DNA from: an uncultured Verrucomicrobiae bacterium
GTDB taxonomy: Bacteria; Verrucomicrobiota; Verrucomicrobiia; Limisphaerales; UBA11358
Assembly: GCA_963802965.1 (NCBI GenBank)
Contig: CAWDKS010000008.1
Location: forward strand, 5,053 to 69,052
Direction: 5' to 3'
DNA: 64,000 bases
The position numbers and the translations under genes were made by a program. Below, piece by piece: positions 805-44,067 of the stretch. A model generated the notes under the pieces. The model had not been told where the DNA came from, searched no databases, and saw nothing but the letters and a program-made list of their open reading frames with translations. Position 1 is the first letter of the stretch. Every line of letters starts with the position of its first letter.

Positions 805-860
805 CAAACCCAAAGGCGCGTGGTGGGAAACTGGCCTTCGCCCGTCTGCCACGCAGTTGA

Positions 861-1121: not shown

Positions 1122-1133
1122 GGCCGGTCTCTT

Positions 1134-1388: not shown

Positions 1389-1408
1389 TGCATTCCGATG
1401 TCGCGACG

Positions 1409-1452
1409 CATCTTTGCAAATTCCACCGCCGCCGCAAGGATTCCTTCGTGGC
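1409..1452. repeat. 44-bp direct repeat, copy 2 (upstream of the TA pair)
   Basis: Matches 761-804; minus strand contains TTGCGG-N16-AAAGAT. Confidence 0.85.
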
Positions 1453-18733: not shown

Positions 18734-19984
18734 ATGTCTGACGCCCAATTCATGCGCCTCGCCCTCCGGCTCGCCCGGCGCGGCTACGGCGCGACTTCGC
18801 CGAATCCGATGGTCGGCGCGGTGCTGGTGAAGGGCGGAAAAATCATCGGACGCGGCTGGCATCGGCGCGCGGGCTTGCCACACGCGGAAATCGAGGCGCT
18901 CCGCAACGCGCAGAAGCGCGGCCACAATCCGCGCGGCGCGTCGCTTTACGTGACGCTCGAACCGTGTTCCACGCACGGTCGCACGCCGCCTTGCACGGAC
19001 GCCATCATCGCCGCCGGCATCAAACGCGTGGTTGTCGGCGCGGTTGACCCGAATCCGGAACATTCGGGGCGTGCTTTCAAAATTTTGAAACGCGCGGGAA
19101 TTGAAATGGTAGGGTCATCGCGTCCACCCTCCGCAGTACTGCTACGGAGGACGCGCTGCGATGACCGGACGGCGCAGCGCGCCGTCCCCACCCGGCTTGC
19201 CGACGAATGCGCCCGGCTCAATGAGGCCTTTAACCACTGGATTGTTTATCGCACGCCGTTCGTCATGGTCAAAGCGGCGATGACGCTGGATGGCAAAATT
19301 GCCACGGCCAGCGGCGAATCGAAATGGATCACCGGTGAAAAGGCGCGCACTTGCGCGATGAAACTACGCCAGGGCAGCGATGCGGTCCTCGTGGGCATCA
19401 ACACAATTTTGGCGGATGATCCGTCGCTGACTGTGCGGAGCGTAACGCCGAGCACCGTCTCGGCTCGAAACGAAGCCATGCCGCAACACGCCGAGGCGGT
19501 GCTTGGCGCTCCGGGATTGCGCCGGATCGTTCTGGATTCGCTGGCGCGAACGCCGTTGAAGGCGAAAATGGTGAGCGACAAATTCGCCAGTCTGACCACC
19601 ATCGTTGTAAGCAAACGCGCGCCCCAAAACCGTGTCACGGCGCTGGCGAAACGCGCGCGTGTCATCGTCGCCCCTCTGGCCAAATCGGCAACCGGCAACC
19701 GGCAACCGGCAATTGACCTGCGCTGGCTGTTGAAAAAGCTGGGTGGGGAAAACGTCACGAGCCTGCTGGTCGAAGGCGGCGGCGAGGTCAACGCGTCGTT
19801 CCTGCTCGGCGGCCTCGCGCAGCGCGCGGCGTTTTTTTACGCGCCGAAAATTCTGGGCGGACGGGATGCGCGGAAGGCCGTGGCCGGCGACGGCGCGAAA
19901 TTCCTGGCAGAAGCGCTCCCGCTTCAGGACGTGGAATGGAAACAACTCGGCCAGGATTTATTGCTGATGGCGCGGGTGGAGTAA
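18734..19984 (+). CDS. ribD: Bifunctional riboflavin deaminase/reductase RibD with three repeat-derived insertions
   Basis: SPNPMVGA, HAE, TLEPCSTHGRTPPC, TLDGKIA, SKWIT, LLVEGG; start at 18734 follows TTGAGC-N17-TACGCT. Confidence 0.95.
   Translation: MSDAQFMRLALRLARRGYGATSPNPMVGAVLVKGGKIIGRGWHRRAGLPHAEIEALRNAQKRGHNPRGASLYVTLEPCSTHGRTPPCTDAIIAAGIKRVVVGAVDPNPEHSGRAFKILKRAGIEMVGSSRPPSAVLLRRTRCDDRTAQRAVPTRLADECARLNEAFNHWIVYRTPFVMVKAAMTLDGKIATASGESKWITGEKARTCAMKLRQGSDAVLVGINTILADDPSLTVRSVTPSTVSARNEAMPQHAEAVLGAPGLRRIVLDSLARTPLKAKMVSDKFASLTTIVVSKRAPQNRVTALAKRARVIVAPLAKSATGNRQPAIDLRWLLKKLGGENVTSLLVEGGGEVNASFLLGGLAQRAAFFYAPKILGGRDARKAVAGDGAKFLAEALPLQDVEWKQLGQDLLLMARVE
19108..19192 (+). repeat. Family A REP doublet with a nested 33-nt palindrome, in frame in ribD
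   Basis: 52-nt family A element plus CCTCCGCAGTACTGCTACGGAGG inserted in the first loop. Confidence 0.85.
19436..19513 (+). repeat. GGAG-type palindrome in frame in ribD
   Basis: CGGAGCG..CCGAGCACCGTCTCGGC ... GCCGAGGCGGTGCTTGGCGCTCCG. Confidence 0.75.
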
Positions 19985-29550: not shown

Positions 29551-30897
29551 GTGTTCGATTCGTTAAGCGGCAAGCTCCAGAACGCCTTCCGGAACCTGCG
29601 CGGGCTTGGAAAAATTTCCGAGGCCAACGTCGCCGATTCCCTGCGCGAAGTCCGCATGGCATTGCTGGAGGCCGACGTGAATTTCAAGGTTGCACGCGAC
29701 TTCATCGAGCGCGTCAAAACCAAATCGCTCGGCGCCGAAGTCGTCGCCAGCGTCCAGCCCGGCCAGCAAATCATCAAAATCATCCATGACGAACTCGTGG
29801 ACCTGCTCGGCTCGCAAAACGCCGGGCTGAATTTGAACGGCAATCCGACCTGCATCCTGATGGTCGGCCTGCATGGCTCCGGCAAGACGACTTCCAGCGG
29901 CAAGCTCGCGCGGCTGCTCCAAAAGCAGGGACGCCAGCCGTTGCTCGTCGCGGCGGACGTTTACCGTCCGGCAGCCATGGACCAATTGGAAACGCTCGGA
30001 AAGCAGCTTGAATTGCCGGTGTTCGTCAAACACGGCGAAACGGATGTTTCGAAAATTGCGCGTGAGGCGCTCGATTTCGCGAAAACAAACAACCGCAACG
30101 TCTTGATTTTTGACACCGCCGGCCGGTTGCAGATTGACGAACCTCTCGTGCAGGAGCTCGTGCGCCTGCAAGACCTCGTGAAGCCGCAGGAAATCCTGCT
30201 CGTGCTGGATGCCGCCACCGGACAGGAAGCCGTGAACGTCGCCACGCATTTTGATCAGGCGCTGCAAATCACCGGCTCCATCCTGACCAAGCTCGACGGC
30301 GACGCGCGCGGCGGCGCGGCATTGAGCCTGAAGGCCGTCACCGGCAAGCCCATCAAGTTTGCCGGCATGGGTGAAAAGCTGGACGAGTTCGAGCCGTTTC
30401 ATCCCGAGCGCATGGCGTCGCGGATTCTCGGCATGGGCGATGTTGTCAGTCTTGTCGAGAAGGCCGCCGAGGCCGTGGATTTGGAGGATGCAAAGCGCAT
30501 GGAAGAAAAAATGCGCAAGGGCCAGTTCACGCTGGAGGATTTTCTCGGGCAACTGCGCCAGATGAAAAAGCTCGGCTCGCTCGAAAGCGTCGTCGGGATG
30601 CTGCCGGGGGGCGCGGAGATGTTGAAGCAGCAGGGCGATTTGTCGAAGCAGGAAAAGGAATTCCACCGGATGGAAGCGATGATTTGCGGCATGACGCCGC
30701 AGGAACGCAAAAGCCCGCAAATCCTGAACGCCAAACGCCGCATTCGCATCGCCAAGGGCAGCGGCGTGAGCGTGACGGAATTGAACACCATGCTCAACAA
30801 GTTCGGCCAGATGCAGCAGATGATGAAGAAAATGGGCAAGTTTACTAAGATGATGGCCAAGATGGGCGGCGGCTTGCCGGGGATGTTGCGGAGGTGA
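29551..30897 (+). CDS. ffh: Signal recognition particle protein Ffh
   Basis: LLEADV, GLHGSGKTT, DVYRPAA, DTAGR, DGDARGGAALS, Met-rich M domain. Confidence 0.97.
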   Translation: MFDSLSGKLQNAFRNLRGLGKISEANVADSLREVRMALLEADVNFKVARDFIERVKTKSLGAEVVASVQPGQQIIKIIHDELVDLLGSQNAGLNLNGNPTCILMVGLHGSGKTTSSGKLARLLQKQGRQPLLVAADVYRPAAMDQLETLGKQLELPVFVKHGETDVSKIAREALDFAKTNNRNVLIFDTAGRLQIDEPLVQELVRLQDLVKPQEILLVLDAATGQEAVNVATHFDQALQITGSILTKLDGDARGGAALSLKAVTGKPIKFAGMGEKLDEFEPFHPERMASRILGMGDVVSLVEKAAEAVDLEDAKRMEEKMRKGQFTLEDFLGQLRQMKKLGSLESVVGMLPGGAEMLKQQGDLSKQEKEFHRMEAMICGMTPQERKSPQILNAKRRIRIAKGSGVSVTELNTMLNKFGQMQQMMKKMGKFTKMMAKMGGGLPGMLRR

Positions 30898-30933
30898 AAT
30901 TTGTTCCGGGTTTGCCGTGCAACCGAACAGAAA

Positions 30934-31557
30934 ATGGACGTGAACAAAATCAAGTCCGCGCTGGCTGACATCACGGCCGAGCGGGACCCGACGCTCAAAA
31001 GCGCCAAGCTCGCCTCGCTGTGTAGCGCGTTGTGGGCGGCGCGCGGCGTGGAACTCGTCGTGGTCGGCGGTTCGGCGATTGAGATATTGACGGAAGGCGC
31101 GTATGCCTCCGGCGACCTCGATATGTGCCACATCACGAAGGCGACCTTGCCGATTGTTGAGCGGAAAGCAATCATGGGCTTGCTTGGCGCCAAAGGCGGT
31201 CCGCGCAACTGGCAGGTGGCTGGCATGTATCTGGATTTGCTCGGCCCTGCGGAAAGCTTCGCGCACACGCCGTTCCGCCGCATCGAAGCGCCTTACGGAA
31301 GTTTTCTGGTGATGAAGCCGGAAGATTTGCTGGTCGAGCGCGTCTTGATGACGTTTTATCCTGGCGAAAGTCAAACGGCGCATGACTGTGCGAAAAAATT
31401 TATCTCGGTCATTCTCACAGGCGGCGTTGCTGTGAATTGGAATGAGGTGCGCAGACTTGCGAATCTGCCGGAATATCGTAACCTTCCACAGTGCGTGAAA
31501 CTGGTGCAAGAAGTCGCCGATGAACTCAAAATCAAAAGTCCCCTGCATCCCGATTGA
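30934..31557 (+). CDS. Nucleotidyltransferase-fold protein (DUF6036-like), putative TA component
   Basis: VVVGGSAIE...YASGDLD (hG[GS]...DxD) and PEDLLVER. Confidence 0.6.
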   Translation: MDVNKIKSALADITAERDPTLKSAKLASLCSALWAARGVELVVVGGSAIEILTEGAYASGDLDMCHITKATLPIVERKAIMGLLGAKGGPRNWQVAGMYLDLLGPAESFAHTPFRRIEAPYGSFLVMKPEDLLVERVLMTFYPGESQTAHDCAKKFISVILTGGVAVNWNEVRRLANLPEYRNLPQCVKLVQEVADELKIKSPLHPD

Positions 31558-31729
31558 AGGCTCGATCAGTTGGGAAGACTGGTTGAAAGGCCGGCGGTTT
31601 CGTCGTAAAATGGGCAATCGGGTCGCGCCGGAAATCATCCGGCGCAAGCGCAGTTCCAGCGACCGGCGGCTGAAAAAACTCTTCAACGGCGAACGCGGCC
31701 TGCCCTTCACGCCCACAGAAAAACTTTGA
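31520..31729 (+). CDS. Small basic hypothetical protein, putative partner of the NTase
   Basis: 69 aa, Arg/Lys-rich; overlaps the NTase 3' end and ends at the duplicated ffh segment. Confidence 0.4.
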   Translation: MNSKSKVPCIPIEGSISWEDWLKGRRFRRKMGNRVAPEIIRRKRSSSDRRLKKLFNGERGLPFTPTEKL

Positions 31730-31800
31730 AGAAGACAGGTCAGTTCCAGAAAATGATGGCCCGCATGGGCGGTGGCCTGCCGGGAATGTTGCGGAGATAA
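31726..31800 (+). pseudogene. Diverged duplicate of the last 25 codons of ffh
   Basis: Reads LKKTGQFQKMMARMGGGLPGMLRR* versus ffh MKKMGKFTKMMAKMGGGLPGMLRR*; 56/75 nt identical to 30823-30897. Confidence 0.9.
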
Positions 31801-31849
31801 AATCGGTGAATCGACCTCTCAACGATTTCACTTTTGCTCAAAATAATGT

Positions 31850-31879
31850 CACTCATCGCCGATAGACTCATTTCCGACA
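31850..31879 (+). promoter_or_regulatory. C-box-like tandem operator
   Basis: CACTCATCGCCGATA GACTCATTTCCGACA: two ACTCAT boxes at 15-bp period, 19 nt before the XRE start codon. Confidence 0.5.
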
Positions 31880-31898
31880 ACGGTGTGAAATATGCGTC

Positions 31899-32126
31899 AT
31901 GCGTAAGCGTGACTCCATCCTTTGCTCGTTCGGGCAAAGCGTAGCAAAGCATCGGCGAGCCCAAGGTCTTTCCCAAGAAGTCCTCGCAGAAAAAGCTGAC
32001 CTCGACCGCACTTACCTCAGCGACATTGAGCGCGGCGTCCGCAATCCCGGGATCAAAAATGTTATTCTGATCGCCAAAGCTTTGGGCATCACGCCCGCCG
32101 ATTTGTTGAAGGGAGTCGGCGGATGA
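31899..32126 (+). CDS. XRE-family HTH regulator resembling R-M controller (C) proteins
   Basis: GLSQEVLAEKADLDRTYLSDIERGVRNP; 75 aa; ATGA overlap with the next gene. Confidence 0.85.
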   Translation: MRKRDSILCSFGQSVAKHRRAQGLSQEVLAEKADLDRTYLSDIERGVRNPGIKNVILIAKALGITPADLLKGVGG

Positions 32127-34094
32127 ACCAAATCCGGACCATGCGGTTAAAAATCGCCGCCCTCTTTGAATTCGAGGGAAAAACTCCGCTCGCGAATGCA
32201 AACGATGTTGTTTCCATCACGCCGCTTGTTTTGAAGCAGTTCGGTTTTCTTCCGCAACCCGTGATGGTGACAGTCGAAGGCGATGAGGTTGTAATTCAAT
32301 GTCCCGAAGAAACAGCGGCTGCCCAAACTGAAGCCGCCCGGCTCGCCGAACGCGCCGGAAAACGCGCAGCCGAGGGCAACTATGAAAAAGCCATCGGCAT
32401 TCTCAAGCGTGTTTTGCAATTGCAACCTTCGCTGCATAAGGCACGCCGCGACCTAGCAATGGCTTATGTCGAGACCGGCGACGTTGACAACGCGACGAAT
32501 CATCTGATTGAGGTTCTCCGGCTTGATCCGGGCGATGCGTGGAGTTGGGTCGTGCTGGCCAATCTTTACATCCGGGAAAAGTCAGACAAAGAAACCGGAG
32601 AAAAGTTTCTGCGCAAAGCACTTGAAATCGCGCCGAATGACGCATGGGCGTTAAACAGCCTGGCATCCGTGACTTTTGAACACGGCAAGACCGATGAAGC
32701 CATTTCACTTTTCGAGCAGGCGATTAAATCCAATTCTGAATTTGCAAATGCATACTACGGCGAAGCCATCGCCTACGCAAAAATAGGGCAGCCGGACAAA
32801 TCACTCACCGCACTCGAAAGACTTTTTGCCCACGCAAAAATGCAAGATGCGCGGTCGAAAACGGTTTACGACGGCGCCCGGCAGCTCTTCGGCAAACTGC
32901 AGGTTGACCTTGCCCAGCGCAACGAATCGGAAACTTTCAAGCTCGTCCAGAATTACAAAGCCGAGATGGAAATCCTGTCTGGCTATCCGATCCGAATTCA
33001 GGAGGAGAATTTCGAAAGCAAAATCGGCGCGACAATTCTGATGGCCTGGAAGCACAGGCGCGATTTCCATTTGGTGAAGATTAGAGCGGATTACCCCCCC
33101 CCCATTAGTCAATCACTTAGAGAGCCACGAACTCACCCATCTCAAGCTGGAATCCGAGGCTCGCAAGGTTGGTAAAAATCTTTTCTTTGCCACCACCGCC
33201 AAGACGCGAGACACGGCCATTCGTGCGGTTGCCGGAGACATCCGCAAGTGGGAAAAGGCCGGGCGCTCCGAAGAACAAATCACCAAGATCACCTTGATGC
33301 TGGTCGGCGGGCTTTGTGAGTTTCTGTTTAATTGTCCGCTCGACATGCTGATTGAGCGGCATCTGCGCGACACATTCAAACCACTCCAACCCGCGCAGTT
33401 CCTCTCCGTGCAGCTCATGGCAAACGAAGCGTGGCAGACGAATAGCAACCCGGAGATCCGCCGGTTGACGCCGCGAAAGATTTTTCAGGCGAGTCTCACC
33501 TTGAACGGAGCTTACGGTTTGTTCTTGGATGATCTCTTTCACAGTGCATCGACCTTTGCGGCGCAGTATCGAAGCTCGGACACTTTCGGTTTATCACAGC
33601 GGCTTTACAAACATTGGCAGGAGCGCGCCAAGAATCTTGGGCCTGGCGACGAGTATGGTTTGGTTGATGAATTTGCCGACATGACCGGTCTGCGTGACTG
33701 GTATGAATGGCGGCCTGACCCCGGCCATCACGAGGCGACCGCCGAACCGCTCAAACAAGGCATAACCAATCCGGCGCTGCTCAAAGTAAAACAGCCGGCG
33801 GCGGTTTTTTATTTCCTAGACGCTTTCAAGCGATTTGATGCTATGACGCCGGAGCAGGTGCGCGACGTCGCGTTTGAAATCGCGCTGCTGGGCCGGGACG
33901 GACTTGACTACGCCGCGCCTGACGAGAAATACGAACTCCGCGCGCTGCCCGACCGGAAATTCTCCGGCTTGCACCTCATGTGCCTCATGTATGCGGGCTT
34001 TAAGCGCGTCGCACCGGAACACGACCCTGGGATGGATTTAATCGACCCTTTTTTAACTGCGCTGCAATTACACCAAGCACAAGGAGGCAAGTGA
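32123..34094 (+). pseudogene. TPR + HExxH protein, frameshifted at C10 (33094-33103)
   Basis: ORFs 32123-33175 (TPR repeats) and 33294-34094 join into 656 aa if one C is removed: ...DYPPPLVNHLESHELTHLKLE...NCPLDMLIE. Confidence 0.78.
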
Positions 34095-36487
34095 TGAGAC
34101 TCTACGCTGGTTCGAGTGAGGAATTTATTTCCGATTCGGTTAATAACCGGATTGCGGACAAGCTAAAAACTGCTTTCTTTGGAGAATTCCGTTATAACCC
34201 TTCGCCAGGTGAAGTAAATTCTTGGCGAAATTCGCTTCGCGCTTTGTCACAGGTTTTCCAATATGGGGAATTCAGGGGGCACGGTGTGTTGCTGGAATAT
34301 GAGCTTCCCCTCACGTCAAAACGGTTGGATTGTTTGATTACTGGTCGAGACAATTTGCTCAACGATCAAGCGGCAATTATCGAATTGAAGCAGTGGGAGA
34401 AGTGCGAAGAAGGCGACGCCGAACGAATTGTCACATTTGTTGGAGGCAACAATCGCGATGTTCTTCACCCCTCGGTTCAAGTTGGCCAATACCGCCGCTA
34501 TCTCGCCGATTATCAGCCCGCGTTTTATGAAGGCGAATCTCCCATCGGCCTGCGGGCCTGTTCATACTTGCATAATTACACACCGGAAGACGGCGACGCC
34601 TTGTTCGCTCTACAATACGCGCCATATATCAAGGAGTGTCCACTGTTCACCGGCGACGATGTCGCAGAGCTGACAGGCTATTTGCGTGAGTTCTTGGTCA
34701 AAGGCGATGACCAACACGCGCTCCGCCGGATACTCGAAGGTAAATTCCGTCCAAGCAAAAAACTCCTTGACCATGTCGGGAAGGTTTTGGACGGCAAACC
34801 TGAATATGTATTGCTTGATGAGCAGTTGGTTGCATTTGAGCGGGTGATCGCAACCGTGCGCGAAGGAATTAAACAGCGGCAGAAAGCGGCAATTATTATT
34901 CGGGGCGGTCCGGGCACGGGAAAGTCCGTCATCGCACTCAATCTTTTATCCGCACTCGCTCGTGAGGGGGTAAGCGCTCAATACGTTACAGGCTCAAAAG
35001 CATTCACAGAAACCTTGAGGAAAATTGTTGGCGATAGAGCCGATACGCAAGTCAACTATTTTAACAGTTATATGCAGTCGGATTTTAATGAGCATGATGT
35101 TCTGTTGTGCGATGAAGCTCATCGAATCCGGGAAACCAGCAACAATCGTTTTACCAGAGCGGCGCATCGTTCAAACCGTTCACAAATTGAGGAACTTTTC
35201 CATGCGGGTAAGGTGCTTGTCTTCTTCATCGATGACCGTCAGGTCGTTCGTCCTGGGGAGATTGGTTCAGCAACAGTCATCACAGATTCGGCGAAAGTTC
35301 AAGGGGTAAGGCTCTTCGACTACAAACTAGAGGCGCAATTCCGATGTGCTGGGTCGGCTGGCTTTGTGAACTGGATTGAAAACACCCTTGAAATCGAGCG
35401 GACGGCAAATGTGTTGTGGAATGTGAATGATAAATTCGAATTCGGGATTGTCGATTCACCGCAAGCATTGGATAAAATCGTCCGCAGCAAACTCGAAGCG
35501 GGAAACTCGGCTCGCCTGATGGCAGGTTTTTGTTGGGACTGGTCTGACCCGTTGCAGGACGGCAATTTGGTTGATGATGTCGTCGTCGGTGATTTTAAGC
35601 GCCCTTGGAATGCGAAGCCCGGCGCTGGTCGCGTAAAACGAGGAATACCCAAGGCGACACTGTGGGCTCACGACGCACGTGGAGTGGAACAGGTCGGCTG
35701 CGTATACACGGCACAAGGTTTTGAGTTCGACTACGCCGGTGTCATTTTTGGGCCAGATTTGGTTTACCGTCCGGGAAAAGGTTGGATTGGTCAGCATGAG
35801 AATTCGTTTGATACAGTGGTCAAACGGTCAAAAGAAAATTTTTTAGAACTTGTGAAGAACACCTATCGGGTTCTTTTTTCCCGCGCAATGAAAGGTTGCT
35901 ACGTTTATTTCGTCGACAAGGAAACGGAAAACTTCTTTCGAAGCCGTATCGAGGGCGGCGCAATTGTGGATGAAGTCGAAACTACAAAAGAATTGGTTCC
36001 GCCTCTACCTTTCCGCATTTTGGAAGAACACGAGTTGGAACGTTTTGTAAACGCCGTTCCCATCTTCGATTTACAAATCGCGGCAGGGTCTTTCAGCGAA
36101 GAGCAGTGGATCGACGAATGTAAGTGGGCTCAGTTGCCTGATCCGTTTGTAGCAAAGAAGGGGTTTTTCTTAGCGAAAGTCGTGGGCGAATCGATGAACA
36201 AGAGAATTCCAAATGGATCGTGGTGCATGTTTAAAGCATCACCGGAAGGCAGTCGGCAGGGCAAAGTTGTTTTGGTGCAGCATCGCAAGATTCAAGATCC
36301 AGACAGCGGGCAGTTTACCATAAAGATTTACGACAGTAAGAAAATCGCCCTTGAGGATTCTTGGAGGCACGAACGTATCATTTTAAGGCCCGATTCGCAC
36401 GAAAGTGGTTTTAAAGAGATCGTCCTGCATCGAGATGACGCTGCTGAATTGAAGGTGATTGGCGAATTTGTAGCTGTTGTGGGCTAA
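34091..36487 (+). CDS. DUF2075 (Schlafen group 3-like) nuclease-helicase with C-terminal S24-like domain
   Basis: RLDCLITG..IIELKQW, HPSVQV, GGPGTGKS, CDEAHR, QFRC, VYTAQGFEFDY; C-terminal IAAGSF...VGESMN...FTIKIY; lower GC. Confidence 0.82.
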   Translation: MMRLYAGSSEEFISDSVNNRIADKLKTAFFGEFRYNPSPGEVNSWRNSLRALSQVFQYGEFRGHGVLLEYELPLTSKRLDCLITGRDNLLNDQAAIIELKQWEKCEEGDAERIVTFVGGNNRDVLHPSVQVGQYRRYLADYQPAFYEGESPIGLRACSYLHNYTPEDGDALFALQYAPYIKECPLFTGDDVAELTGYLREFLVKGDDQHALRRILEGKFRPSKKLLDHVGKVLDGKPEYVLLDEQLVAFERVIATVREGIKQRQKAAIIIRGGPGTGKSVIALNLLSALAREGVSAQYVTGSKAFTETLRKIVGDRADTQVNYFNSYMQSDFNEHDVLLCDEAHRIRETSNNRFTRAAHRSNRSQIEELFHAGKVLVFFIDDRQVVRPGEIGSATVITDSAKVQGVRLFDYKLEAQFRCAGSAGFVNWIENTLEIERTANVLWNVNDKFEFGIVDSPQALDKIVRSKLEAGNSARLMAGFCWDWSDPLQDGNLVDDVVVGDFKRPWNAKPGAGRVKRGIPKATLWAHDARGVEQVGCVYTAQGFEFDYAGVIFGPDLVYRPGKGWIGQHENSFDTVVKRSKENFLELVKNTYRVLFSRAMKGCYVYFVDKETENFFRSRIEGGAIVDEVETTKELVPPLPFRILEEHELERFVNAVPIFDLQIAAGSFSEEQWIDECKWAQLPDPFVAKKGFFLAKVVGESMNKRIPNGSWCMFKASPEGSRQGKVVLVQHRKIQDPDSGQFTIKIYDSKKIALEDSWRHERIILRPDSHESGFKEIVLHRDDAAELKVIGEFVAVVG

Positions 36488-36651
36488 ATGGTGATCAATG
36501 CCTGTATACGACATTGATGCTGCTAAGCCGCCCGCCCTTGCCAACCAAACTCCTCGCGCCCCTTCAGGGCGCATATTTTTGTGGGACGATTTCCGTAGCG
36601 CCTTCAGCGCATTTCAGTTTGCGCCAATTCGTGCAATTCGTGTCAAAATCT

Positions 36652-37206
36652 TCAACTTGGCAGCGGCCCGCCGGCATTGATTTTGTGTTTCAAGCAGTAA
36701 GCGCCGTTGTCCACGTATTTCTCCGCCCACCATTTCAGTCCGGCGCGTTCTTTCTTGGATAATTTGCGGACGACTTTTGCCGGCGCGCCGAGCACGAGCG
36801 AGCCTGGCGGGATTTTTGTTCCCTGCGTCACCAGCGCCTTCGCGCCGATGAGCGATTGTTTGCCGATGACCGCGCCGTCCAAAATCACCGCGCCCATGCC
36901 GACCAACACTTCGTCGCCGACTTTGCAGGCGTGAACTATCGCGCCGTGGCCGACGGTGACCCAGTTGCCGACGATGCACGGAAAATCGTCGGCGAGGTGC
37001 AGCACGGCGTTGTCCTGGATGTTGGTGTGATGGCCGACGACGATGCGGTTGATGTCGCCGCGCAGCACCGCGCCATACCACACGCTGGAATACGCGCCGA
37101 GCGTCACGTCGCCGAGGACGACTGCGGTTCGGGCGAGATAGACACCCCGGCCGAGCCGCGGCTGTCTGCGCAGGAACGTGTCGAGTTGTTTCACCGTATT
37201 TTTCAC
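36652..37206 (-). CDS. Gamma carbonic anhydrase family protein
   Basis: AVLRGD, TNIQDNAVLH, TVGHGAIVHAC hexapeptide repeats. Confidence 0.92.
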   Translation of the reverse strand: MKNTVKQLDTFLRRQPRLGRGVYLARTAVVLGDVTLGAYSSVWYGAVLRGDINRIVVGHHTNIQDNAVLHLADDFPCIVGNWVTVGHGAIVHACKVGDEVLVGMGAVILDGAVIGKQSLIGAKALVTQGTKIPPGSLVLGAPAKVVRKLSKKERAGLKWWAEKYVDNGAYCLKHKINAGGPLPS

Positions 37207-37352
37207 GCGGGAAATTTAATCCCGCAAGGCGGGAATGTCGCGGATTGATTTTCAAAGTTCAAATGCGGACGGCGACACGCCGTCCCTCCCAAAATGAAAA
37301 CGGCGTTTTGCATTTCATTCGGTGCACGCAAGGATTAAAATGCGGTTGTCGT

Positions 37353-38282
37353 ATGACGAAACCGGTTTTACCACGTCCCGCCGCGCCGCGCCGGCGGCTG
37401 CCGCGTTCCTTCAAGGATTTGACGCCGTCGAAGCATTTCAATCCGCGCACGTTTTTTCAGGAACTCATCTGGAAGGCCCTGCTGACCCGGCGCACCGGTC
37501 AGCAGCGCCGCCCGATTTTCCCCAAATTGTCACACGGCCAGGTCGCCGTCACCTGGATCGGTCATGCCTCGTTTTTAATCCAGTTCACGGACCTGAACGT
37601 CTTGATTGATCCGAACTTTGCGAACTGGCTGTTCCTCCTGAAGCGCATCAAGCGGTCCGGCTTGAAAATCCGGGACCTGCCGCGGATTGATCTGGTGCTG
37701 CTCACGCACGCGCATTTCGATCATTTTCACAAGCCGACGCTGCGCCGCCTGCCGCGCCCGAAAATCGGCGTGATGCCGTGGGGCGTCGGCGATCTGGCCC
37801 AAAACCTCGGCTTCGCGCGGGTGATCGAGCTGGAATGGTGGGAAAGTTTTTCGCAAGCGGACTGGCAGGTCACGTTCACGCCGAGCCAGCATTGGGGCGC
37901 GCGCACGTTGCACGATCACCATCGCGGTTACGGCGGGTTCGTTTTGGAGCATCAAGGCCGGAGAATTTATCACGCGGGCGACAGCGCCTATTTTGAGGGC
38001 TTCAAGGAAATCGGGAACAAGATTTCCCCGGAAATCGCGCTGCTGCCCATCGGCGCGTATCACCCGGAATCGTTCCGCCGCGTCCACATGGGCCCGGACG
38101 AGGCGGTGCGGGCGTTCCGGGATTTGCGGGCGCGGTGGCTGGTGCCGATGCATTACGGGACCTTCAAATTGTCGTTCGAGGAAATGGACGAGCCGCCGCG
38201 CTGGCTCCGCGAAATTGCCGCGAAGGAAAATCTCACGCAAAAAGTCCGGATGCTTGACGAAGGCGTGCCAATGGTGTTTTGA
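37353..38282 (+). CDS. MBL-fold metallo-hydrolase
   Basis: WIGHASFL, THAHFDH, AGDSAY, LPIGAY, PMHYGTF. Confidence 0.9.
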   Translation: MTKPVLPRPAAPRRRLPRSFKDLTPSKHFNPRTFFQELIWKALLTRRTGQQRRPIFPKLSHGQVAVTWIGHASFLIQFTDLNVLIDPNFANWLFLLKRIKRSGLKIRDLPRIDLVLLTHAHFDHFHKPTLRRLPRPKIGVMPWGVGDLAQNLGFARVIELEWWESFSQADWQVTFTPSQHWGARTLHDHHRGYGGFVLEHQGRRIYHAGDSAYFEGFKEIGNKISPEIALLPIGAYHPESFRRVHMGPDEAVRAFRDLRARWLVPMHYGTFKLSFEEMDEPPRWLREIAAKENLTQKVRMLDEGVPMVF

Positions 38283-38306
38283 TCTTAAAAATTGCGCCGC
38301 GCCAAC

Positions 38307-39851
38307 ATGACCGACGACCACGGCAATCACCGCGCCACACTCCTTGACCCGCTCCGGCGTTATGTTCCGCTGGCGGTGTGGGTGATTGTCATCTTGGTCA
38401 TCCTGGCCATCCCCTTGAAAATCATCAGCTATGGTTATTTGCCGGGCGATGATGCCTTGCGGCACGCAGCCAAGGCGGTGAGCGGCAAGCCGTGGTCGGA
38501 AATCCTCGTCCTCAACCACGCCTACCAGATTGACCATGAGTTCGGCTGGAACCTGCTGCTGGAGAAAATCCATCATTGGGAAAACTGGGATGCTGAAAAG
38601 CTGGTGGTTTTTTCCGTGGTGGCGCTTTTCGTTCTGACGGGCTGGTCGGTGCTGCCCTGGCTGAAACGGCCGGAGGCATGGCTGATTACGCTGACGGCGG
38701 CGATGATTGTTTCGGACATCCCCCAACGGTTCATGCTGGGGCGGCCTTATCTGGTGAGCATTTCGGTTTTGATGACGTTGTTTCTGTTGTGGCAAAGGCA
38801 CGGCGCATCACCGCCGAAATGGTGGATGGCAGGTCTGATGACGGGCTTGTTTGCCATTGCAACCTTTGTGCATGGAGTCTGGTATCTGTGGGCGCTGCCG
38901 ATTGCGGCGTTTTTCTTCGCCGGACAATTTCGCTGGGGACTGATGCTGGGGGTGAGCTGGGCCATTGGCGTTTTGGTGGGTGCGGCGCTCACCGGACATC
39001 CGGTGGCCTACCCCACGCAAGCCTTGAAACTGGCGCTGCTCGCCGTCGGGATGCACGCCACCGTCCGCACGATGGCAACGGAACTGCAACCGGACACGGG
39101 TGACGCGCTGGCGCTGATCATTCTGGGCGGCCTGTTGATTTTACGCCAACTGGCCAGGCTAAACGCGCGGCCGTTGACCGCCACGCCGGCGTTCTGGCTG
39201 CTCTGTTTCAGTTGGCCCCTCGGCTTCAAAGTCGGGCGCTTTTGGGACGATTGGGGCTGGCCGGCGCTGATGGTTTTGATGACGTGCGATTTGCAGGCGC
39301 TTTTGCAGGCGCGTTTCGCGGTGGATTCGTTCAAGCGATTGGGGCTGACTTGCGGCCTGGCCCTGGCGGCTTATCTGTGTTTGACCAGCGACCTCAACAG
39401 CCGCTGGTCGGCAACGCTGGTGAATCAATATCTGACGACGGCGGAACATCCCGAACTCAACGGCTGGATGCCGGACAAAGGCGGCATTTTTTACTCGGCG
39501 GACATGACGCTGTTTTATCAGACCTTTTTCAAAAATCCGAACGGCGACTGGCGTTACCTGCTCGGCTTTGAACCGACATGGATGCCGAAGGAGGATTTCG
39601 AGGTTTATCACAAGGTATTGTGGAATTACGGCGACGCCAAAGCCTACTCACCGTGGGTGCAGAAAATGCGGCCGGAAGACCGCTTGGTGATTCGCGCCGG
39701 ACGCGCCAGTCCGCCCAACATTCCGCAACTCGAATGGGACTACGGCGTCAGCGGTATCTGGGTCGGACGGCTGCCGCGCACCAACGCCCCCGCGCCAGGA
39801 GCGCCGCCGGCCATTCCGGCGACGGCGCCGCGCGACGGTTCAGCGAAGTGA
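38307..39851 (+). CDS. Multi-pass membrane protein (GT-C-like), unknown function
   Basis: About 10 hydrophobic segments; DDALRH motif after the first TM helix. Confidence 0.6.
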   Translation: MTDDHGNHRATLLDPLRRYVPLAVWVIVILVILAIPLKIISYGYLPGDDALRHAAKAVSGKPWSEILVLNHAYQIDHEFGWNLLLEKIHHWENWDAEKLVVFSVVALFVLTGWSVLPWLKRPEAWLITLTAAMIVSDIPQRFMLGRPYLVSISVLMTLFLLWQRHGASPPKWWMAGLMTGLFAIATFVHGVWYLWALPIAAFFFAGQFRWGLMLGVSWAIGVLVGAALTGHPVAYPTQALKLALLAVGMHATVRTMATELQPDTGDALALIILGGLLILRQLARLNARPLTATPAFWLLCFSWPLGFKVGRFWDDWGWPALMVLMTCDLQALLQARFAVDSFKRLGLTCGLALAAYLCLTSDLNSRWSATLVNQYLTTAEHPELNGWMPDKGGIFYSADMTLFYQTFFKNPNGDWRYLLGFEPTWMPKEDFEVYHKVLWNYGDAKAYSPWVQKMRPEDRLVIRAGRASPPNIPQLEWDYGVSGIWVGRLPRTNAPAPGAPPAIPATAPRDGSAK

Positions 39852-40126: not shown

Positions 40127-40585
40127 TCAAAACCATTCCTTGCGGCCGTCCACGTATACCCGCACGAATTCCTCGTCCGGCTTGCACAGGTAAATAATGC
40201 CTTCGATGAGGCCGATGAGGTGCATGATGGGCGAAAGGGTGAAACAGGAAAGCACGGTGACCAGCAGCATGATCAAACCGGCGCCGGTGTAACCGAGGAT
40301 GAATTTATGGATGCCAAGCGAACCCAGCAGTATCCCGAAAATGCCCGCCGCGATTTTTTGCGACGCCCGCGCGGCCACGGCGCCGGACGCCGGCAGGATT
40401 GGCGGCGGAGCGGCATTCAACCCGGCGGCGAATTCGGGCAGGGAACCCAGCGGTTTCCAATCCTGGGCGCCTTCCGTCTGAACCAGGGTTTGGGCGTGAA
40501 CGCGGTTCTCGGTGAACCAGCGCCGGATTTGCTCCGCGTTCACTGGCCCGTATCGCCGGCCATCGGTTCCGATGATTTTATACAT
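40127..40585 (-). CDS. GYF_2 (DUF4339) + TM2 domain protein
   Basis: MYKIIGTDGRRYGPV...WKPL..LPEF; KIAAGIFGILLGSLGIHKFILG. Confidence 0.8.
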   Translation of the reverse strand: MYKIIGTDGRRYGPVNAEQIRRWFTENRVHAQTLVQTEGAQDWKPLGSLPEFAAGLNAAPPPILPASGAVAARASQKIAAGIFGILLGSLGIHKFILGYTGAGLIMLLVTVLSCFTLSPIMHLIGLIEGIIYLCKPDEEFVRVYVDGRKEWF

Positions 40586-40630
40586 GCGACCTTCTCCAGA
40601 GTTTTGTCATGCCGCCGGACGAATCCAGGT

Positions 40631-41038
40631 TCAAGCCTTCGGCGGGACGGAACCGCCGGTGGAATCAATTTGTCCGGAAGCTTCCGCCGGGGCACTCCGG
40701 CGGGCTTCAATAAACAGGCTGATGCTCGTCACCAAAGCCCAAAACCAGGATGCGACAAATACAATCCCGCCGGTTACGCCAATCCAGCCGACCGGATGTG
40801 GCTGCGCGTCGCCGCCGATCTGGTCATAATACTGAATCATCACTTTGAAAAACCACACGACGACCATGATGAAACCCGCCACGGCCAGGGCCAGTTGTCC
40901 ACTGCCCGCGATCCAGCGCCCGGCCATCAGCGAGCCGAGACCGGGTGTGGCCAGTTGATTCACCAACGCGGCGTTCCGGGCGCTGACGATGTCAACCGGT
41001 TTGCGACCCGGCTGAGGAAAAGATGGTTTCATACGCAT
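40631..41038 (-). CDS. Small membrane protein
   Basis: NQLATPGLGSL followed by two TM helices; within the GYF gene run. Confidence 0.65.
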   Translation of the reverse strand: MRMKPSFPQPGRKPVDIVSARNAALVNQLATPGLGSLMAGRWIAGSGQLALAVAGFIMVVVWFFKVMIQYYDQIGGDAQPHPVGWIGVTGGIVFVASWFWALVTSISLFIEARRSAPAEASGQIDSTGGSVPPKA

Positions 41039-41981
41039 ACATCAATGCCCCCAAGCCGATGGGCATGGTGAACAACAAGCCGACGCAGCACAGTAACACG
41101 CCAACGACGTTGAGCAAGCTCACCAAAACAAACAATCCAAAAACCAACCACCAATGTTTGTTGACCATTTTCCAACTCGTCTTCATCGCCTGCCAAAATT
41201 CCATTTGCTTGTCCATGATGAGCGGCAGGGTGAAGGACCAGCTTATCTGCAAATATACCGTCGGAATCAGGCATATCAATAAAACCGGCAGGATAACCGG
41301 AAGCTGGTTCTCAAAGACCTGGGTGATCATTTGGGGGTCCGGGGCCGCGCCATGCGCGGCCGCAGCCGCACGCACAATCCCAATGACCAGCACAATGAGG
41401 AAAGGAATCATGCATAAACCCGTCAGCAATCCGCGCACGAGATAACCGAGAAAAAGCTGCAGGAAAGCCTTGCGAAACCCGGCAAATACATCGCCAACCT
41501 CCGCCGGTTGGCCGCGGATCGCCTGGATAAACATGTAAAAAACGCCGCCCATCAACGGTCCGGTAATGAACAGATTCGCAATCGAGAACAGCGGGCCGAT
41601 AATGGGAATCGAGCCCAAACCCGCAATGGCGCCTACGATCAGGAAGTAAATCAAAACGCCGGCGAAGAGCAGCCCGAAATTATTTTTCAACAATGTCCAT
41701 CCGCGGCCGATGCAACCGCCAATGTCGAGATCGTAATCACGTTCCAGCAGGTTGGCGGATGAGACCGATGCCGGTGGTGGCAGTGTTTCTGGAGCTGCGG
41801 CCGCGAGCGCGGCCGCGAATTCCGGGAACCCCCCGAGCGGACGAAATTCCACATCGTCTTCCACCTTTGCCAACGTCTGCGCGTTGAGCCGGCCCTCGGC
41901 AATCCATCGGCGCATGTCTTCCGCCGAAACCATGCTGTATTCCTTTTGGTCGCCGCCGATGATTTTATACATGACTGCCAT
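40992..41981 (-). CDS. GYF_2 domain + multi-TM membrane protein
   Basis: MYKIIGGDQKEY...WIAEGRLNAQT...FPEF; about 6 TM segments ending GVLLCCVGLLFT. Confidence 0.8.
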   Translation of the reverse strand: MAVMYKIIGGDQKEYSMVSAEDMRRWIAEGRLNAQTLAKVEDDVEFRPLGGFPEFAAALAAAAPETLPPPASVSSANLLERDYDLDIGGCIGRGWTLLKNNFGLLFAGVLIYFLIVGAIAGLGSIPIIGPLFSIANLFITGPLMGGVFYMFIQAIRGQPAEVGDVFAGFRKAFLQLFLGYLVRGLLTGLCMIPFLIVLVIGIVRAAAAAHGAAPDPQMITQVFENQLPVILPVLLICLIPTVYLQISWSFTLPLIMDKQMEFWQAMKTSWKMVNKHWWLVFGLFVLVSLLNVVGVLLCCVGLLFTMPIGLGALMYAYETIFSSAGSQTG

Positions 41982-42014
41982 TTTGAGTTACACGGGAATT
42001 GGGTTGTTTCCGGT

Positions 42015-42899
42015 TCATGGATCCCAACGAAGTGTGTTGATCTGTGATTCGCGCAATTGCCGGACGCTGCCGTCCGCAAAGGCAACCACGAACAATCGGT
42101 CGTGACGCGGTTTGCCAATCATCAGTTCCGGGCCGCCATTCGCGTTCCAGCCGCCGTCCGACTCAAAAATCATCACGGTGTCCGGGGCGATTTTGCTTCC
42201 GTCCATGCCGCCCAATTTGGCGTTGAAGGCATAATCGCAGCGGCTGCTGGAATTCGCGGCGGCACATTTGAAGGCTTTTCCCGATCCAACGTTGACTTTG
42301 ATGGCGTCGCACCAGTTTGCAGCGGGCGGTAATTGTCCGTTGTGATCACCGGAATAAATTTTTACGGCTACCGCAAGTTGCGTTTCGTTGTTCACGCAAT
42401 TAATGGCCTCGGCTTTTTGCTTCGCCGCCGCCAATGCCGGAAGCAGCATGGCGGCGAAAATCGGAATCATGATCACAAAGATTGAGGACACGATCACCCC
42501 GGCCAGCGCGAAGCCATTGACTCCCAGCGCGCTCCGGTTCTGTTTGGCCTTTACCAGGGCAATGATTCCAAAAACCAATCCAAACAACGCCGTGAAGCCG
42601 CAGGTGAACAGTCCCAAAATCCCCAGCACCAGCGAGGTAATGGCCAGGCCGTTGGTGTTTGCAGGCAGGGGCGGCGCGGCGGACGGCAAAGACGGTGGCG
42701 TGCCGGAGACGGCGGACCTGGTGGCGAGCGCGGCGGCGAATTCGGGAAAAGCCGAGAGCGGACGCCATTCCGCATCGCTCTCCGCCTTTGCCTGGGATTG
42801 CGGGTTCAGCCGGCCATCCAAAATCCATTGGCGCAACTGTTCCTCCGTTACCGGGCCATATTCTTTTTGATCGCCCCCGATGAGGATGTAGGTCGCCAT
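42015..42899 (-). CDS. GYF_2 + DUF4190 + pilin-like helix / H-X9-DG protein
   Basis: YILIGGDQKEYGPV; TNGLAITSLVLGILG; AMLLPALAAAKQKA...CVNN; HDRLFVVAFADG. Confidence 0.78.
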   Translation of the reverse strand: MATYILIGGDQKEYGPVTEEQLRQWILDGRLNPQSQAKAESDAEWRPLSAFPEFAAALATRSAVSGTPPSLPSAAPPLPANTNGLAITSLVLGILGLFTCGFTALFGLVFGIIALVKAKQNRSALGVNGFALAGVIVSSIFVIMIPIFAAMLLPALAAAKQKAEAINCVNNETQLAVAVKIYSGDHNGQLPPAANWCDAIKVNVGSGKAFKCAAANSSSRCDYAFNAKLGGMDGSKIAPDTVMIFESDGGWNANGGPELMIGKPRHDRLFVVAFADGSVRQLRESQINTLRWDP

Positions 42900-42960
42900 A
42901 ATTTTGTCCCGCGTTTGCCGACTTCTAGTCCATCGCGCGAATTGACGCAAGCCGTTTCGC

Positions 42961-44067
42961 TCACGTGTTCCGCACAAACAATTTTCCCGGCAATTGCCTG
43001 ACCACCCGTTTCATTTCCAAACCCAGCAACGCCACGCTCGCCGCCGAACTCGGCAGGCCGCTGCGCCGGATCACCTCGTCAATGGAGGATTCCTCGTGGT
43101 TCAGCGCGTCATAGACTTTCCGCTCGTTTTCGCCCAGTTCAAGCGCGGGCAGCACGCCGGTTTCGCCCGGTGACGGCGGACGATTGCTGGCCGGGAACAG
43201 ATATTCGAACTCGCTCAAAATGTCCTCCGCGCCTTCGCACAGCTTCGCGCCTTTTTTGATCAAATCGTGGCAGCCCTTGCTGCGCGGTGAATCAATCCGG
43301 CCCGGCACGGCAAAAACCTGCCGGCCGTATTCCGTCGCAAAATTCGACGTGATGAGCGCGCCGCTGTGCAGGTCGGCCTCGACCACCACCGTGCCCAGGG
43401 TCATGCCGGCAATGATGCGGTTGCGGATGGCAAAGGATTGTTTGTCGCCGTTGCGGTTGAAGGGGAATTGCGTGATGACCGCGCCGTTCTCCGCGATGCG
43501 CGTGAACAAATCCCGGTTCTCCGGCGGGAACACCAGGTTGATGCCCGTGCCCAGCACGCACACCGTCCGTCCTTTCGCCGCCAGCGCGCCCTGGTGCGCC
43601 GCCGTGTCAATGCCGCGCGCGCCGCCGCTCACGACCGTCACGCCGACGTAGGCCAGTTGATACGCCAGCTTGCGCGCGGTCTCGAGGCCGTAATGCGTCG
43701 TCATCCGCGAGCCGACCATCGCCACGGCGCTTTTGTCCTTCGCAGTCAGGGCGCCTTTGACGTAAAGCACCAGCGGCGGGTCGTATATTTGCCGGAGCGA
43801 TTCGGGATAATCGCCATCAGATTGGATCAAAACGTGGCAGCCGAACTCCTGAATGCGCCTAAGTTCACTCGCAAGGTCAATGGCCTTTTCCCATCCGACA
43901 ATCGCGTCGGCGGTTTCCTCGCCGATATTGCGGACGCGGAGCAGTTCGTGTCGGGATGCCTGAAGAATCCTGGGCGCGTCGCCGAAATGTTCGAGCAACA
44001 GCCGCGCGCGCACCGGCCCGACGTGCTCGACCAAGTTCAAAACAATGAGCGCTTCTTTCGGTTCCAC
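42961..44067 (-). CDS. dprA: DNA-processing protein DprA
   Basis: DPPLVLY, VGSR, VSGGARGID, RNRIIAG, SGALIT, AVPG, LIKKGA. Confidence 0.95.
   Translation of the reverse strand: MEPKEALIVLNLVEHVGPVRARLLLEHFGDAPRILQASRHELLRVRNIGEETADAIVGWEKAIDLASELRRIQEFGCHVLIQSDGDYPESLRQIYDPPLVLYVKGALTAKDKSAVAMVGSRMTTHYGLETARKLAYQLAYVGVTVVSGGARGIDTAAHQGALAAKGRTVCVLGTGINLVFPPENRDLFTRIAENGAVITQFPFNRNGDKQSFAIRNRIIAGMTLGTVVVEADLHSGALITSNFATEYGRQVFAVPGRIDSPRSKGCHDLIKKGAKLCEGAEDILSEFEYLFPASNRPPSPGETGVLPALELGENERKVYDALNHEESSIDEVIRRSGLPSSAASVALLGLEMKRVVRQLPGKLFVRNT

What the first reader, a model, noticed from the sequence alone, without database searches (positions are those of the whole stretch)
30823..31800. Second ffh 3' end with mostly synonymous divergence brackets an integrase-less cassette
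Seen: 31726-31800 versus 30823-30897 is 56/75 nt identical; nine codon differences are synonymous (including TGA/TAA), and MGGGLPGMLRR* is unchanged. So both copies evolved under coding selection, which means one arrived from another lineage's ffh rather than by local duplication and decay. The ~0.83 kb between them encodes an NTase-fold protein and a small ORF, and a second cargo block follows the relic. Inference: the ffh 3' end is a stacking site where [ffh tail + defence cargo] units replace the gene end. With the 44-bp leader repeat and the possible mqnA relic, this suggests a general integrase-free cassette capture route (for example homology-facilitated recombination during transformation; dprA is in the window).
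Basis: partly seen in the sequence, partly recalled or inferred. Interest (0 to 1): 0.72.

Follow-up and report, generated by a model that had tools for sequence, protein, structure and literature searches.

The report
Leftover ffh gene end marks insertions
A second, unused copy of the last 24 codons of the essential gene ffh lies 0.9 kb behind the real one, a scar of DNA spliced in from a related bacterium; such scars are a known kind of thing and no new capture mechanism is shown.

Summary
A 77-nt direct repeat (30824-30900 / 31727-31803) repeats the ffh 3' end: 56 of 75 nt identical, 9 synonymous and 5 non-synonymous codon differences. Random mutation does not give this pattern (P<2e-5).

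Four syntenic relatives have ffh abutting a convergent gamma-carbonic-anhydrase-like gene. The window therefore carries about 5.75 kb inserted there, in two blocks.
- **Block 1:** an AbiEii/MenT-like nucleotidyltransferase plus a 69-aa protein. The pair is clade-conserved (1424 and 999 homologues) with near-native composition.
- **Block 2:** a GC-poor, defence-like block (controller HTH, frameshifted TPR gene with an HExxH motif, Schlafen-type helicase fused to S24 peptidase).

The relic sits between the two blocks.

The working ffh end looks native: its rare Thr is shared with the closest relatives. The relic carries another lineage's tail. So the gene end was probably not replaced.

None of the 59 window proteins scanned matched an integrase or transposase family. 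There is no third tail. None of 77 other ffh loci has a second tail.

Most likely the relic rode in with imported DNA through host recombination, homologous on one side and illegitimate on the other. A decayed att site (CIME-like) remains a serious rival. Integrase-free island gain at hotspots is already described. Interest is moderate to low.

The parts
29551..30897 (+). ffh (signal recognition particle protein, 448 aa), intact
   Evidence: Pfam SRP54 / SRP_SPB / SRP54_N. 92-95% identical to the 120 best database relatives.
30824..30900 (+). Repeat copy 1: the working ffh 3' end (last 24 codons, stop, AAAT)
   Evidence: Its Thr at tail position 8 is shared with the closest relatives.
30934..31557 (+). 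Nucleotidyltransferase-fold protein, 207 aa (AbiEii / MenT / DUF2204-like). Gene 1 of a clade-conserved module.
   Evidence: 1424 homologues; 116 of the 120 listed are 207 aa and the 120 are 80-92% identical. AlphaFold2 pLDDT 96.3. Foldseek hits: 5uvd, ANT(2'')-Ia, MenT1, MenT3. DUF2204 matched weakly by 17 of 33 family members. Atlas neighbours are named AbiEii/AbiGii. GC3 0.68.
31520..31729 (+). Small basic protein, 69 aa. Gene 2 of the module. It overlaps gene 1 by 38 nt, and its stop codon is the first three bases of the relic repeat.
   Evidence: 999 homologues, the 120 listed being 83-100% identical. 110 of 120 are 69 aa, and 119 of 120 end at the same residue. It shares 11 exact 'longest contig' lengths with the NTase list, against 2.0 expected.
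31727..31803 (+). Repeat copy 2: relic ffh 3' end, not part of any called gene
   Evidence: blastn matches the ffh 3' ends of 13 relatives, and every alignment starts at 31727. Residues 7-24 all occur in functional relatives. Residues 1, 4 and 6 occur in none of 109. Four of the five relic-unique bases lie in the first 16 nt.
31899..32126 (+). XRE-type HTH, controller-protein-like. First gene of the GC-poor block.
   Evidence: Pfam HTH_3 E 3.6e-17. PADLOC Control_protein E 1.6e-21. GC3 0.61.
32123..34094 (+). TPR protein whose downstream part carries an HExxH motif (HELTH). The gene is split by a frameshift in a C10 run at 33094-33103.
   Evidence: Pfam TPR families. Frames read. No Pfam match for the downstream part.
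34091..36487 (+). Schlafen-group-3 / DUF2075-type helicase fused to an S24 (LexA-like) peptidase, 798 aa
   Evidence: Pfam SLFN-g3_helicase E 4e-84 and Peptidase_S24 E 2.1e-5. PADLOC PDC-S41, AbiO and Nhi models. GC3 0.50.
36556..36572 (+). Terminator-like hairpin with a T run, closing the GC-poor block
36652..37206 (-). Gamma-carbonic-anhydrase-like hexapeptide protein: the native right flank, convergent with ffh
   Evidence: Pfam Hexapep. NCBIfam gamma carbonic anhydrase E 1.4e-53, below the curated cutoff. It lies directly after ffh in L002, L005, L022 and L003. GC3 0.78.

Best explanation
The second ffh tail is a dead passenger: the 3' end of a working ffh from another lineage of the same genus-level clade. 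It marks a recombination junction inside a small integrase-less insertion spot. That spot is the few-base spacer between the convergent ends of ffh and a gamma-carbonic-anhydrase-like gene.

Two unrelated blocks sit in the spot. One is a clade-conserved NTase plus 69-aa module with near-native composition. The other is a GC-poor, defence-like block of about 4.8 kb.

Most likely reading (inferred): the relic entered as the leading edge of a fragment [ffh end + GC-poor block + right flank]. The donor was a relative in which that block lay directly after ffh. Host recombination fixed the fragment, homologous on the right (carbonic-anhydrase / MBL side) and illegitimate or homeologous on the left. 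This is homology-facilitated illegitimate recombination. The left join fell behind the resident NTase module, so the native ffh end stayed in use.

Shown: the repeat, its coding-type divergence, the empty site in relatives, the two compositional classes, the absence of any recombinase, and the native look of the working tail.
Inferred: the order of events, the donor arrangement and the recombination route.
For: - Repeat and coding-type divergence.
- The relic's last 18 residues occur exactly in 3 of the 120 close Ffh clusters. All of its residues 7-24 are seen in functional relatives.
- The working tail's Thr at position 8 occurs in 4 of 109 relatives, ranked 1, 4, 7 and 76. The relic's Arg at position 13 occurs in 7 of 109, ranked 38-96.
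- Empty site: ffh is followed within 0 to about 350 nt by the convergent hexapeptide gene, with the MBL gene next, in L002, L005, L022 and L003 (in L003 there is a further 177-aa ORF between them); the 519-aa gene follows in L002, L005 and L022.
- The GC drop to 0.48-0.55 and GC3 of 0.50-0.64 begin right after the relic. The NTase module has GC3 0.66-0.68, against 0.74-0.79 for ffh and the native genes to its right.
- No integrase, transposase or resolvase family in the 59 window proteins scanned. No third tail.
- Relic-unique base changes cluster at the left edge, 4 of 5 within 16 nt, as expected near an illegitimate or homeologous join.
- The longest exact match between the copies is 11 nt.
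- dprA is present.
- The route is documented in general: HFIR (PMC3240628, abstract) and hotspots without mobile elements that recombine at flanking core genes (PMC5635113, passages).
Against: - No relative in hand shows the required prior state ffh-NTase-module. Among the 19 loci shown, none has the NTase or the small gene within 10 kb of ffh.
- Contig-length coincidences between the NTase and Ffh lists number 2 against 0.61 expected. Between the small-protein and Ffh lists they number 0 against 0.45 expected. Adjacency elsewhere is therefore not shown.
- No donor with ffh followed by the GC-poor block was found. blastn of the island against all 80 loci hit only ffh tails.
- The native-tail argument rests on single-residue polymorphisms.
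- A mosaic test on Ffh gave no signal.
- The sharp 77-nt repeat that ends at the same AAAT in both copies also fits an att site.
Confidence: 0.4

Rival explanations
1. Decayed site-specific integration. The two tails are attL and attR of an element that targeted the ffh 3' end and carried a surrogate gene end. It later lost its integrase and most genes, making it a cis-mobilizable element (CIME). The GC-poor block would be a second, accreted element whose far att site was deleted.
For: - A direct repeat that overlaps the 3' end of a conserved gene, with sharp edges, ending 4 nt past both stops.
- Foreign DNA lies alongside.
- The first 6 codons of the relic resemble ffh but are not coding-compatible (3 residues never seen in 109 relatives). 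The remaining 18 are compatible. This is the pattern expected if an element arm lies left of the crossover and a host tail lies right of it.
- CIMEs and tandem accretion at a gene end are described (PMC5704250, passage read).
Against: - No tyrosine or serine recombinase family in the 59 window proteins scanned.
- No third tail at the end of the GC-poor block or anywhere in the window.
- The bracketed unit is a near-native, clade-conserved pair and not typical element cargo.
- None of 77 other ffh loci has a second tail.
- No integrase among 41 ORFs downstream of ffh in 13 relatives.
- The longest exact identity is only 11 nt.
- A text search for ffh, integration site and genomic island gave 7 papers. 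None of those I looked at describes ffh as a target.
Confidence: 0.3
2. The unit [working tail + NTase module] was imported and replaced the gene end, pushing the older tail downstream. ffh would be a general stacking site for such units.
For: The geometry allows it: an insertion of 903 bp at ffh codon 424. The donor would be a close relative, since both tails fall within the clade's diversity. A second small toxin-antitoxin-type pair in the window is also bracketed by an imperfect 44-bp repeat.
Against: - The working tail shares its rare Thr with the relatives closest in the rest of Ffh.
- There is no mosaic signal in Ffh.
- No stacking in 77 loci.
- Uniform content after ffh in the four syntenic relatives.
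- The NTase module is not shown to lie next to ffh anywhere else.
Confidence: 0.12
3. Assembly chimera of two strains, one with ffh followed by the NTase module and one with ffh followed by the GC-poor block.
For: The source is probably a metagenome-type assembly, and the repeat is exactly where two strain variants would differ. Read data could not be checked here.
Against: The join at 31726/31727 lies between sequence unrelated to ffh and the middle of an ffh tail. The two tails share at most 11 identical bases in a row, which is shorter than assembler k-mers. No repeat-driven misjoin is therefore expected.
Confidence: 0.04
4. Local tandem duplication of the ffh end, followed by decay of one copy.
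For: It is a direct repeat in the same orientation, close by.
Against: Nineteen differences with only 5 non-synonymous codons is not reached in 50,000 random-mutation trials. The relic's variable residues are states used by living relatives.
Confidence: 0.01

Closest known systems
att-site duplication by integrative elements that insert into the 3' end of a gene, and their decayed form, the cis-mobilizable element (CIME), with tandem accretion (PMC5704250, passage read)
   Same: A direct repeat with one copy forming the working gene end. Foreign DNA lies behind it. There is no integrase, as in a CIME. Two blocks sit in tandem.
   Different: There is no integrase anywhere in 64 kb, no third repeat, and only 11 nt of exact identity. 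The bracketed block is a near-native, clade-conserved gene pair. No ffh-targeting element was seen in 77 loci.
Homology-facilitated illegitimate recombination, and island gain by recombination at flanking core genes in hotspots that lack mobile elements (PMC3240628, abstract; PMC5635113, passages)
   Same: No mobility genes. The insertion lies between two conserved core genes. A stretch of donor core-gene sequence sits at the edge of the imported block. A competence-associated gene (dprA) is present.
   Different: Neither donor nor recipient state has been observed. Retention of a displaced, intact-looking gene end as a junction fossil is not described in the passages I read. Transformation in this organism is unknown.
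Orphan toxin-tip / immunity modules behind CDI and Rhs genes (recalled, not checked in a paper here)
   Same: Displaced 3' gene ends pile up downstream of the working gene, each with its own cargo.
   Different: ffh is a housekeeping gene whose tail is not a variable effector. There is only one displaced end, and it has no conserved recombination motif.
AbiEii / MenT-type nucleotidyltransferase toxin systems
   Same: The fold and the G-S ... D-x-D motif of the 207-aa protein. A small overlapping partner gene is present.
   Different: No Pfam or PADLOC model reaches threshold. The partner lies downstream and is a 69-aa basic protein, not an AbiEi-type antitoxin. Toxicity is untested.

Membership tests
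Integrative element or CIME at a gene 3' end | Direct repeats (attL/attR) bound the element, one overlapping the target gene's end | tested here: met
   77-nt repeat at 30824-30900 / 31727-31803, 77% identical. This holds only for the 0.83-kb block. The GC-poor block has no far repeat.
Integrative element (autonomous) | Tyrosine or serine recombinase gene next to an att site | tested here: not met
   No such Pfam family in the 59 window proteins scanned. The island proteins also have no such NCBIfam or PADLOC match.
Integrative element or CIME at a gene 3' end | Identical core shared by both att sites | tested here: inconclusive
   The longest exact run is 11 nt (ATGTTGCGGAG). This is enough for some recombinases and short for most.
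Integrative element or CIME at a gene 3' end | Related elements occupy the same site in other genomes | tested here: not met
   None of 77 loci has a second ffh tail at protein or nucleotide level. No integrase among 41 ORFs downstream of ffh in 13 relatives.
Homology-facilitated illegitimate recombination / flank-recombination import | Donor core-gene sequence contiguous with the imported block | tested here: met
   A relic with another lineage's tail states lies directly upstream of the GC-poor block.
Homology-facilitated illegitimate recombination / flank-recombination import | One homologous junction and one illegitimate junction at microhomology, shown by comparing donor and recipient | not testable with these tools
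   No donor or recipient sequence is in hand. 
Integron cassette array / attC cluster | Cassettes separated by structured attC sites | tested here: not met
   The repeat is an ffh coding end. Its folds are no better than shuffles (z -0.44 and +0.33). Rfam finds only the tRNA. No dedicated attC model was run.
AbiEii / MenT nucleotidyltransferase toxins | Family profile match above threshold | tested here: not met
   No Pfam or PADLOC hit for the window protein. DUF2204 scores 12.9 bits against a cutoff of 20.3.
AbiEii / MenT nucleotidyltransferase toxins | Minimal NTase fold with catalytic motif | tested here: met
   pLDDT 96.3. Foldseek hits: 5uvd at E 3e-5, and MenT1 / MenT3 at E 3e-4 to 1e-3 with TM 0.43-0.58. 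The G-G-S ... S-G-D-L-D segment is conserved in the alignment consensus, with G45 invariant.
AbiEii / MenT nucleotidyltransferase toxins | Toxicity neutralised by the partner | not testable with these tools
   Needs expression tests. The complex prediction was never accepted by the queue.

The most novel reading that the evidence does not exclude
The NTase + 69-aa pair is a miniature mobile cassette. It carries an ffh-tail mimic as its own attachment site and is inserted at, and perhaps excised from, the ffh end by a recombinase supplied in trans or by a host enzyme. The 44-bp-bracketed DUF4258 pair at 761-1452 would be a second product of the same integrase-less route.
Probability: 0.08. Interest if true: 0.7.

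Novelty: new member of a known kind. Interest (0 to 1): 0.33.

Why it matters
A displaced gene end that still reads like a working one is a dated fossil of a transfer. It shows that the incoming DNA came from a close relative and where one junction lies, in an uncultured soil Verrucomicrobium for which no genetics exists.

It also defines a very small permissive spot, where two convergent core genes abut, that holds a defence-like block with no mobility gene. This fits the published picture of hotspots fed by host recombination.

It does not by itself reveal a new capture mechanism. With contigs of close relatives, the three histories set out above (HFIR-type import, decayed att site, replacement of the gene end) could be told apart quickly.

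Tried and rejected
- **Third tail or far att site.** Nothing lies in the 164-nt spacer 36488-36651. The whole-window scan found only two copies. A 14-of-15 match at 37230-37244 lies beyond the native hexapeptide gene and is part of a local hairpin. It has no extended similarity and is not conserved in relatives. I judged it chance.
- **Short repeat 30913-30934 / 31701-31722 (16 of 22).** Of the size that all-against-all comparison gives by chance.
- **Translation of the relic.** There is no upstream start in its frame. A +1 slip at CTT-TGA leads to the third frame, not the relic frame (read from the sequence).
- **RNA structure or a known RNA in the repeat.** None.
- **'Longest contig' lengths as a proxy for co-location.** This works for the NTase with the small protein (11 matches against 2.0 expected). 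It is inconclusive for either gene with Ffh.
- **Mosaic structure in Ffh.** No signal.
- **Island against the plasmid collection.** One irrelevant 169-nt match.
- **Sequence searches of the NTase against solved structures.** No significant hit.
- **Complex prediction for the NTase with the small protein.** Never queued, so there is no verdict.
- **Pfam survey of ORFs behind ffh in the 62 distant loci.** Prepared but not run.
- **** had an off-by-one cut of the tail. One search replaces it.
Full report
**What is there**

ffh (29551-30897, Pfam SRP54 / SRP_SPB / SRP54_N) ends with ...MKKMGKFTKMMAKMGGGLPGMLRR*. A second copy of these 24 codons plus a stop lies 903 nt downstream.

- 30823-30897 against 31726-31800 is 56 of 75 nt identical.
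- Of the 25 codons, 11 are identical and 9 differ synonymously (counting TGA/TAA).
- Five differ non-synonymously, all within the first 13 codons.
- The repeat finder gives a 77-nt unit, 30824-30900 / 31727-31803, which includes AAAT after both stops.
- Similarity stops abruptly at both edges.
- Shuffled sequence reaches at most 40 of 75 (20 shuffles).
- The six-frame scan of the whole window finds only these two copies.

**Is the divergence of coding type?**

Yes. In 50,000 simulations of 19 random substitutions, none gave 5 or fewer non-synonymous codons. Five substitutions in the last 12 codons were all silent in 24 of 50,000 trials.

More telling is a comparison with the 109 Ffh relatives of 448 aa, taken from the 120 listed at 92-95% identity. 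Every relic residue from position 7 to 24 is a state used by living relatives. The relic's last 18 residues occur exactly in three clusters.

Only positions 1, 4 and 6 (L, T, Q) are never seen. At nucleotide level, four of the five relic-unique bases lie in its first 16 nt (about 0.009 by binomial, post hoc).

The relic is therefore a real ffh end from a related lineage, damaged only next to its left edge. blastn aligns it to the ffh ends of 13 relatives, always starting at 31727.

**Context**

Sixteen are Pedosphaera-like, with Ffh 71-89% identical.

- In L002, L005, L022 and L003, ffh is followed within 0 to about 350 nt by a convergent gamma-carbonic-anhydrase-like hexapeptide gene and then by an MBL-fold gene. 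In L003 a further 177-aa ORF lies between them. The 519-aa gene follows in L002, L005 and L022.
- The same three genes lie at 36652-39851 in the window.
- The window therefore carries about 5.75 kb inserted into a spacer of a few bases.
- GC falls to 0.48-0.55 across 31-37 kb, against about 0.58-0.60 in the flanks.

**Two blocks, not one**

*Block 1 (30901-31726)* encodes a 207-aa protein and an overlapping 69-aa basic protein.

- The 207-aa protein has no profile hit above threshold.
- Its model is confident (pLDDT 96.3). The best structural matches are nucleotidyltransferases: 5uvd, ANT(2'')-Ia, and MenT1 and MenT3 toxins.
- DUF2204 is matched weakly by 17 of 33 family members.
- Atlas neighbours are named AbiEii/AbiGii.

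Both genes are strikingly conserved.

| Gene | Homologues | Identity of the 120 listed | Length conservation |
|---|---|---|---|
| NTase | 1424 | 80-92% | 116 of 120 are exactly 207 aa |
| 69-aa protein | 999 | 83-100% | 119 of 120 end at the same residue |

- Only 278 clusters exist at the 50% identity level.
- The two lists share 11 exact 'longest contig' lengths, against 2.0 expected. The two genes therefore travel together.
- Their GC3 (0.66-0.68) is near the native range of 0.70-0.79.

This is a clade-typical module, possibly of toxin-antitoxin kind. It is not variable cargo.

*Block 2 (31804 to about 36651)* is compositionally foreign, with GC3 0.50-0.64, and looks like defence. It contains:

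- a controller-type HTH;
- a TPR protein whose continuation carries an HExxH motif, split by a C10 run;
- a Schlafen-type helicase fused to an S24 peptidase;
- its own terminator.

The relic lies exactly between the two blocks.

**Which tail is native?**

The working tail has Thr at position 8. Among the 109 relatives this occurs four times, at ranks 1, 4, 7 and 76 by identity over the rest of the protein. Three of four in the top seven gives about 6.5e-4 by my arithmetic.

The relic's Arg at position 13 occurs seven times, at ranks 38-96.

So the working end goes with the rest of the gene, and the relic is the foreign one. A segment-wise mosaic test on Ffh gave no signal.

**Mobility genes and recurrence**

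- The 59 window proteins scanned matched no integrase, transposase or resolvase family.
- dprA is at 42961-44067.
- In 77 loci with a complete ffh (three run off their contig), none has a second tail. At protein level the best downstream score is 41 (upstream control 46), against 103 in the window. At nucleotide level the best is 34 of 60 (control 36), against 46 in the window. Six of these loci hold under 2 kb of downstream sequence.
- Forty-one ORFs behind ffh in 13 relatives are mostly housekeeping genes that differ between lineages. One is a PIN toxin in L009, 17 have no family, and none is an integrase.
- None of the island genes appears in the 19 loci shown. blastn of the island against all 80 loci hits only ffh tails.
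- Whether the NTase module lies next to ffh in closer relatives could not be settled. Contig-length coincidences with the Ffh list are 2 (0.61 expected) for the NTase and 0 (0.45 expected) for the small protein.

**Explanation**

The facts fit a relic carried in at the edge of imported DNA and fixed by host recombination. The join would be homologous in the right-hand core genes and illegitimate or homeologous at the left, where the base changes cluster.

The route exists in general:

- homology-facilitated illegitimate recombination (PMC3240628, abstract);
- hotspots that lack mobile elements and recombine at flanking core genes, more so in transformable species (PMC5635113, passages).

I give this reading 0.4.

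The main rival, at 0.3, is a decayed att pair, meaning a CIME with accretion (PMC5704250, passage). It explains the sharp 77-nt unit and the non-coding-compatible left arm. It lacks an integrase, a third site and any sister element.

A chimera gets 0.04, because the copies share at most 11 identical bases, too few for a k-mer misjoin. Local duplication gets 0.01.

**Known or new**

A text search for ffh, integration site and genomic island found 7 papers. None of those I inspected names ffh as a target: I saw the listing and abstracts of all 7 and read passages of two, and one concerns ffs. The kind of feature is known, so this is a new member of a known kind.

**Left open**

Still unchecked are the contigs of close relatives, read support across the junctions, and binding of the two module proteins. 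The complex job was never queued.

Noticed in passing
window 761-1452 (minus strand): A 44-bp direct repeat (761-804 / 1409-1452, 40 of 44 identical) brackets a DUF4258 gene (1385-1134) and a small DUF2283-like gene (1121-861; that name is recalled, not tested). The pair sits in the leader of the next gene (732 down to 1). This is a second small two-gene cassette flanked by an imperfect copy of local sequence.
   Followed up: partly
window 2841-2897, 8427-8483, 19140-19196: A 57-nt GC-rich palindromic repeat in three copies (81-84% identical). Each copy lies inside an ORF: an ogt-like gene, a radical-SAM MqnC/CofH-like gene, and ribD. The translated copies hit each other at E about 5e-5. This recalls palindromic elements that insert in frame into genes.
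   Followed up: no
window 33094-33103: A run of ten C splits the TPR gene (32123-33175) from its continuation, which carries an HExxH motif and runs to 34094. It could be a sequencing error, a pseudogene or a phase switch.
   Followed up: partly
window 12687-13409 (minus strand): A 240-aa ORF with GC3 of only 0.38 and no Pfam match, set among high-GC genes near the menaquinone (futalosine-type) genes. It is probably another foreign insert.
   Followed up: no
window 40145-42977 (minus strand): Tandem paralogous membrane-protein genes (DUF975, DUF4190, GYF_2) that share a 160-nt stretch at 76% identity.
   Followed up: no
L009 11346-11744 (minus strand): A PIN-domain (VapC-like) gene sits directly behind ffh in this relative, with an 80-aa ORF beside it. 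It is a small accessory insert at the same gene end, without a second tail.
   Followed up: partly
window 31804-31898: An inverted repeat (GTGAATCG ... CGATTTCAC) lies just upstream of the controller-type HTH gene. It may be its operator.
   Followed up: no
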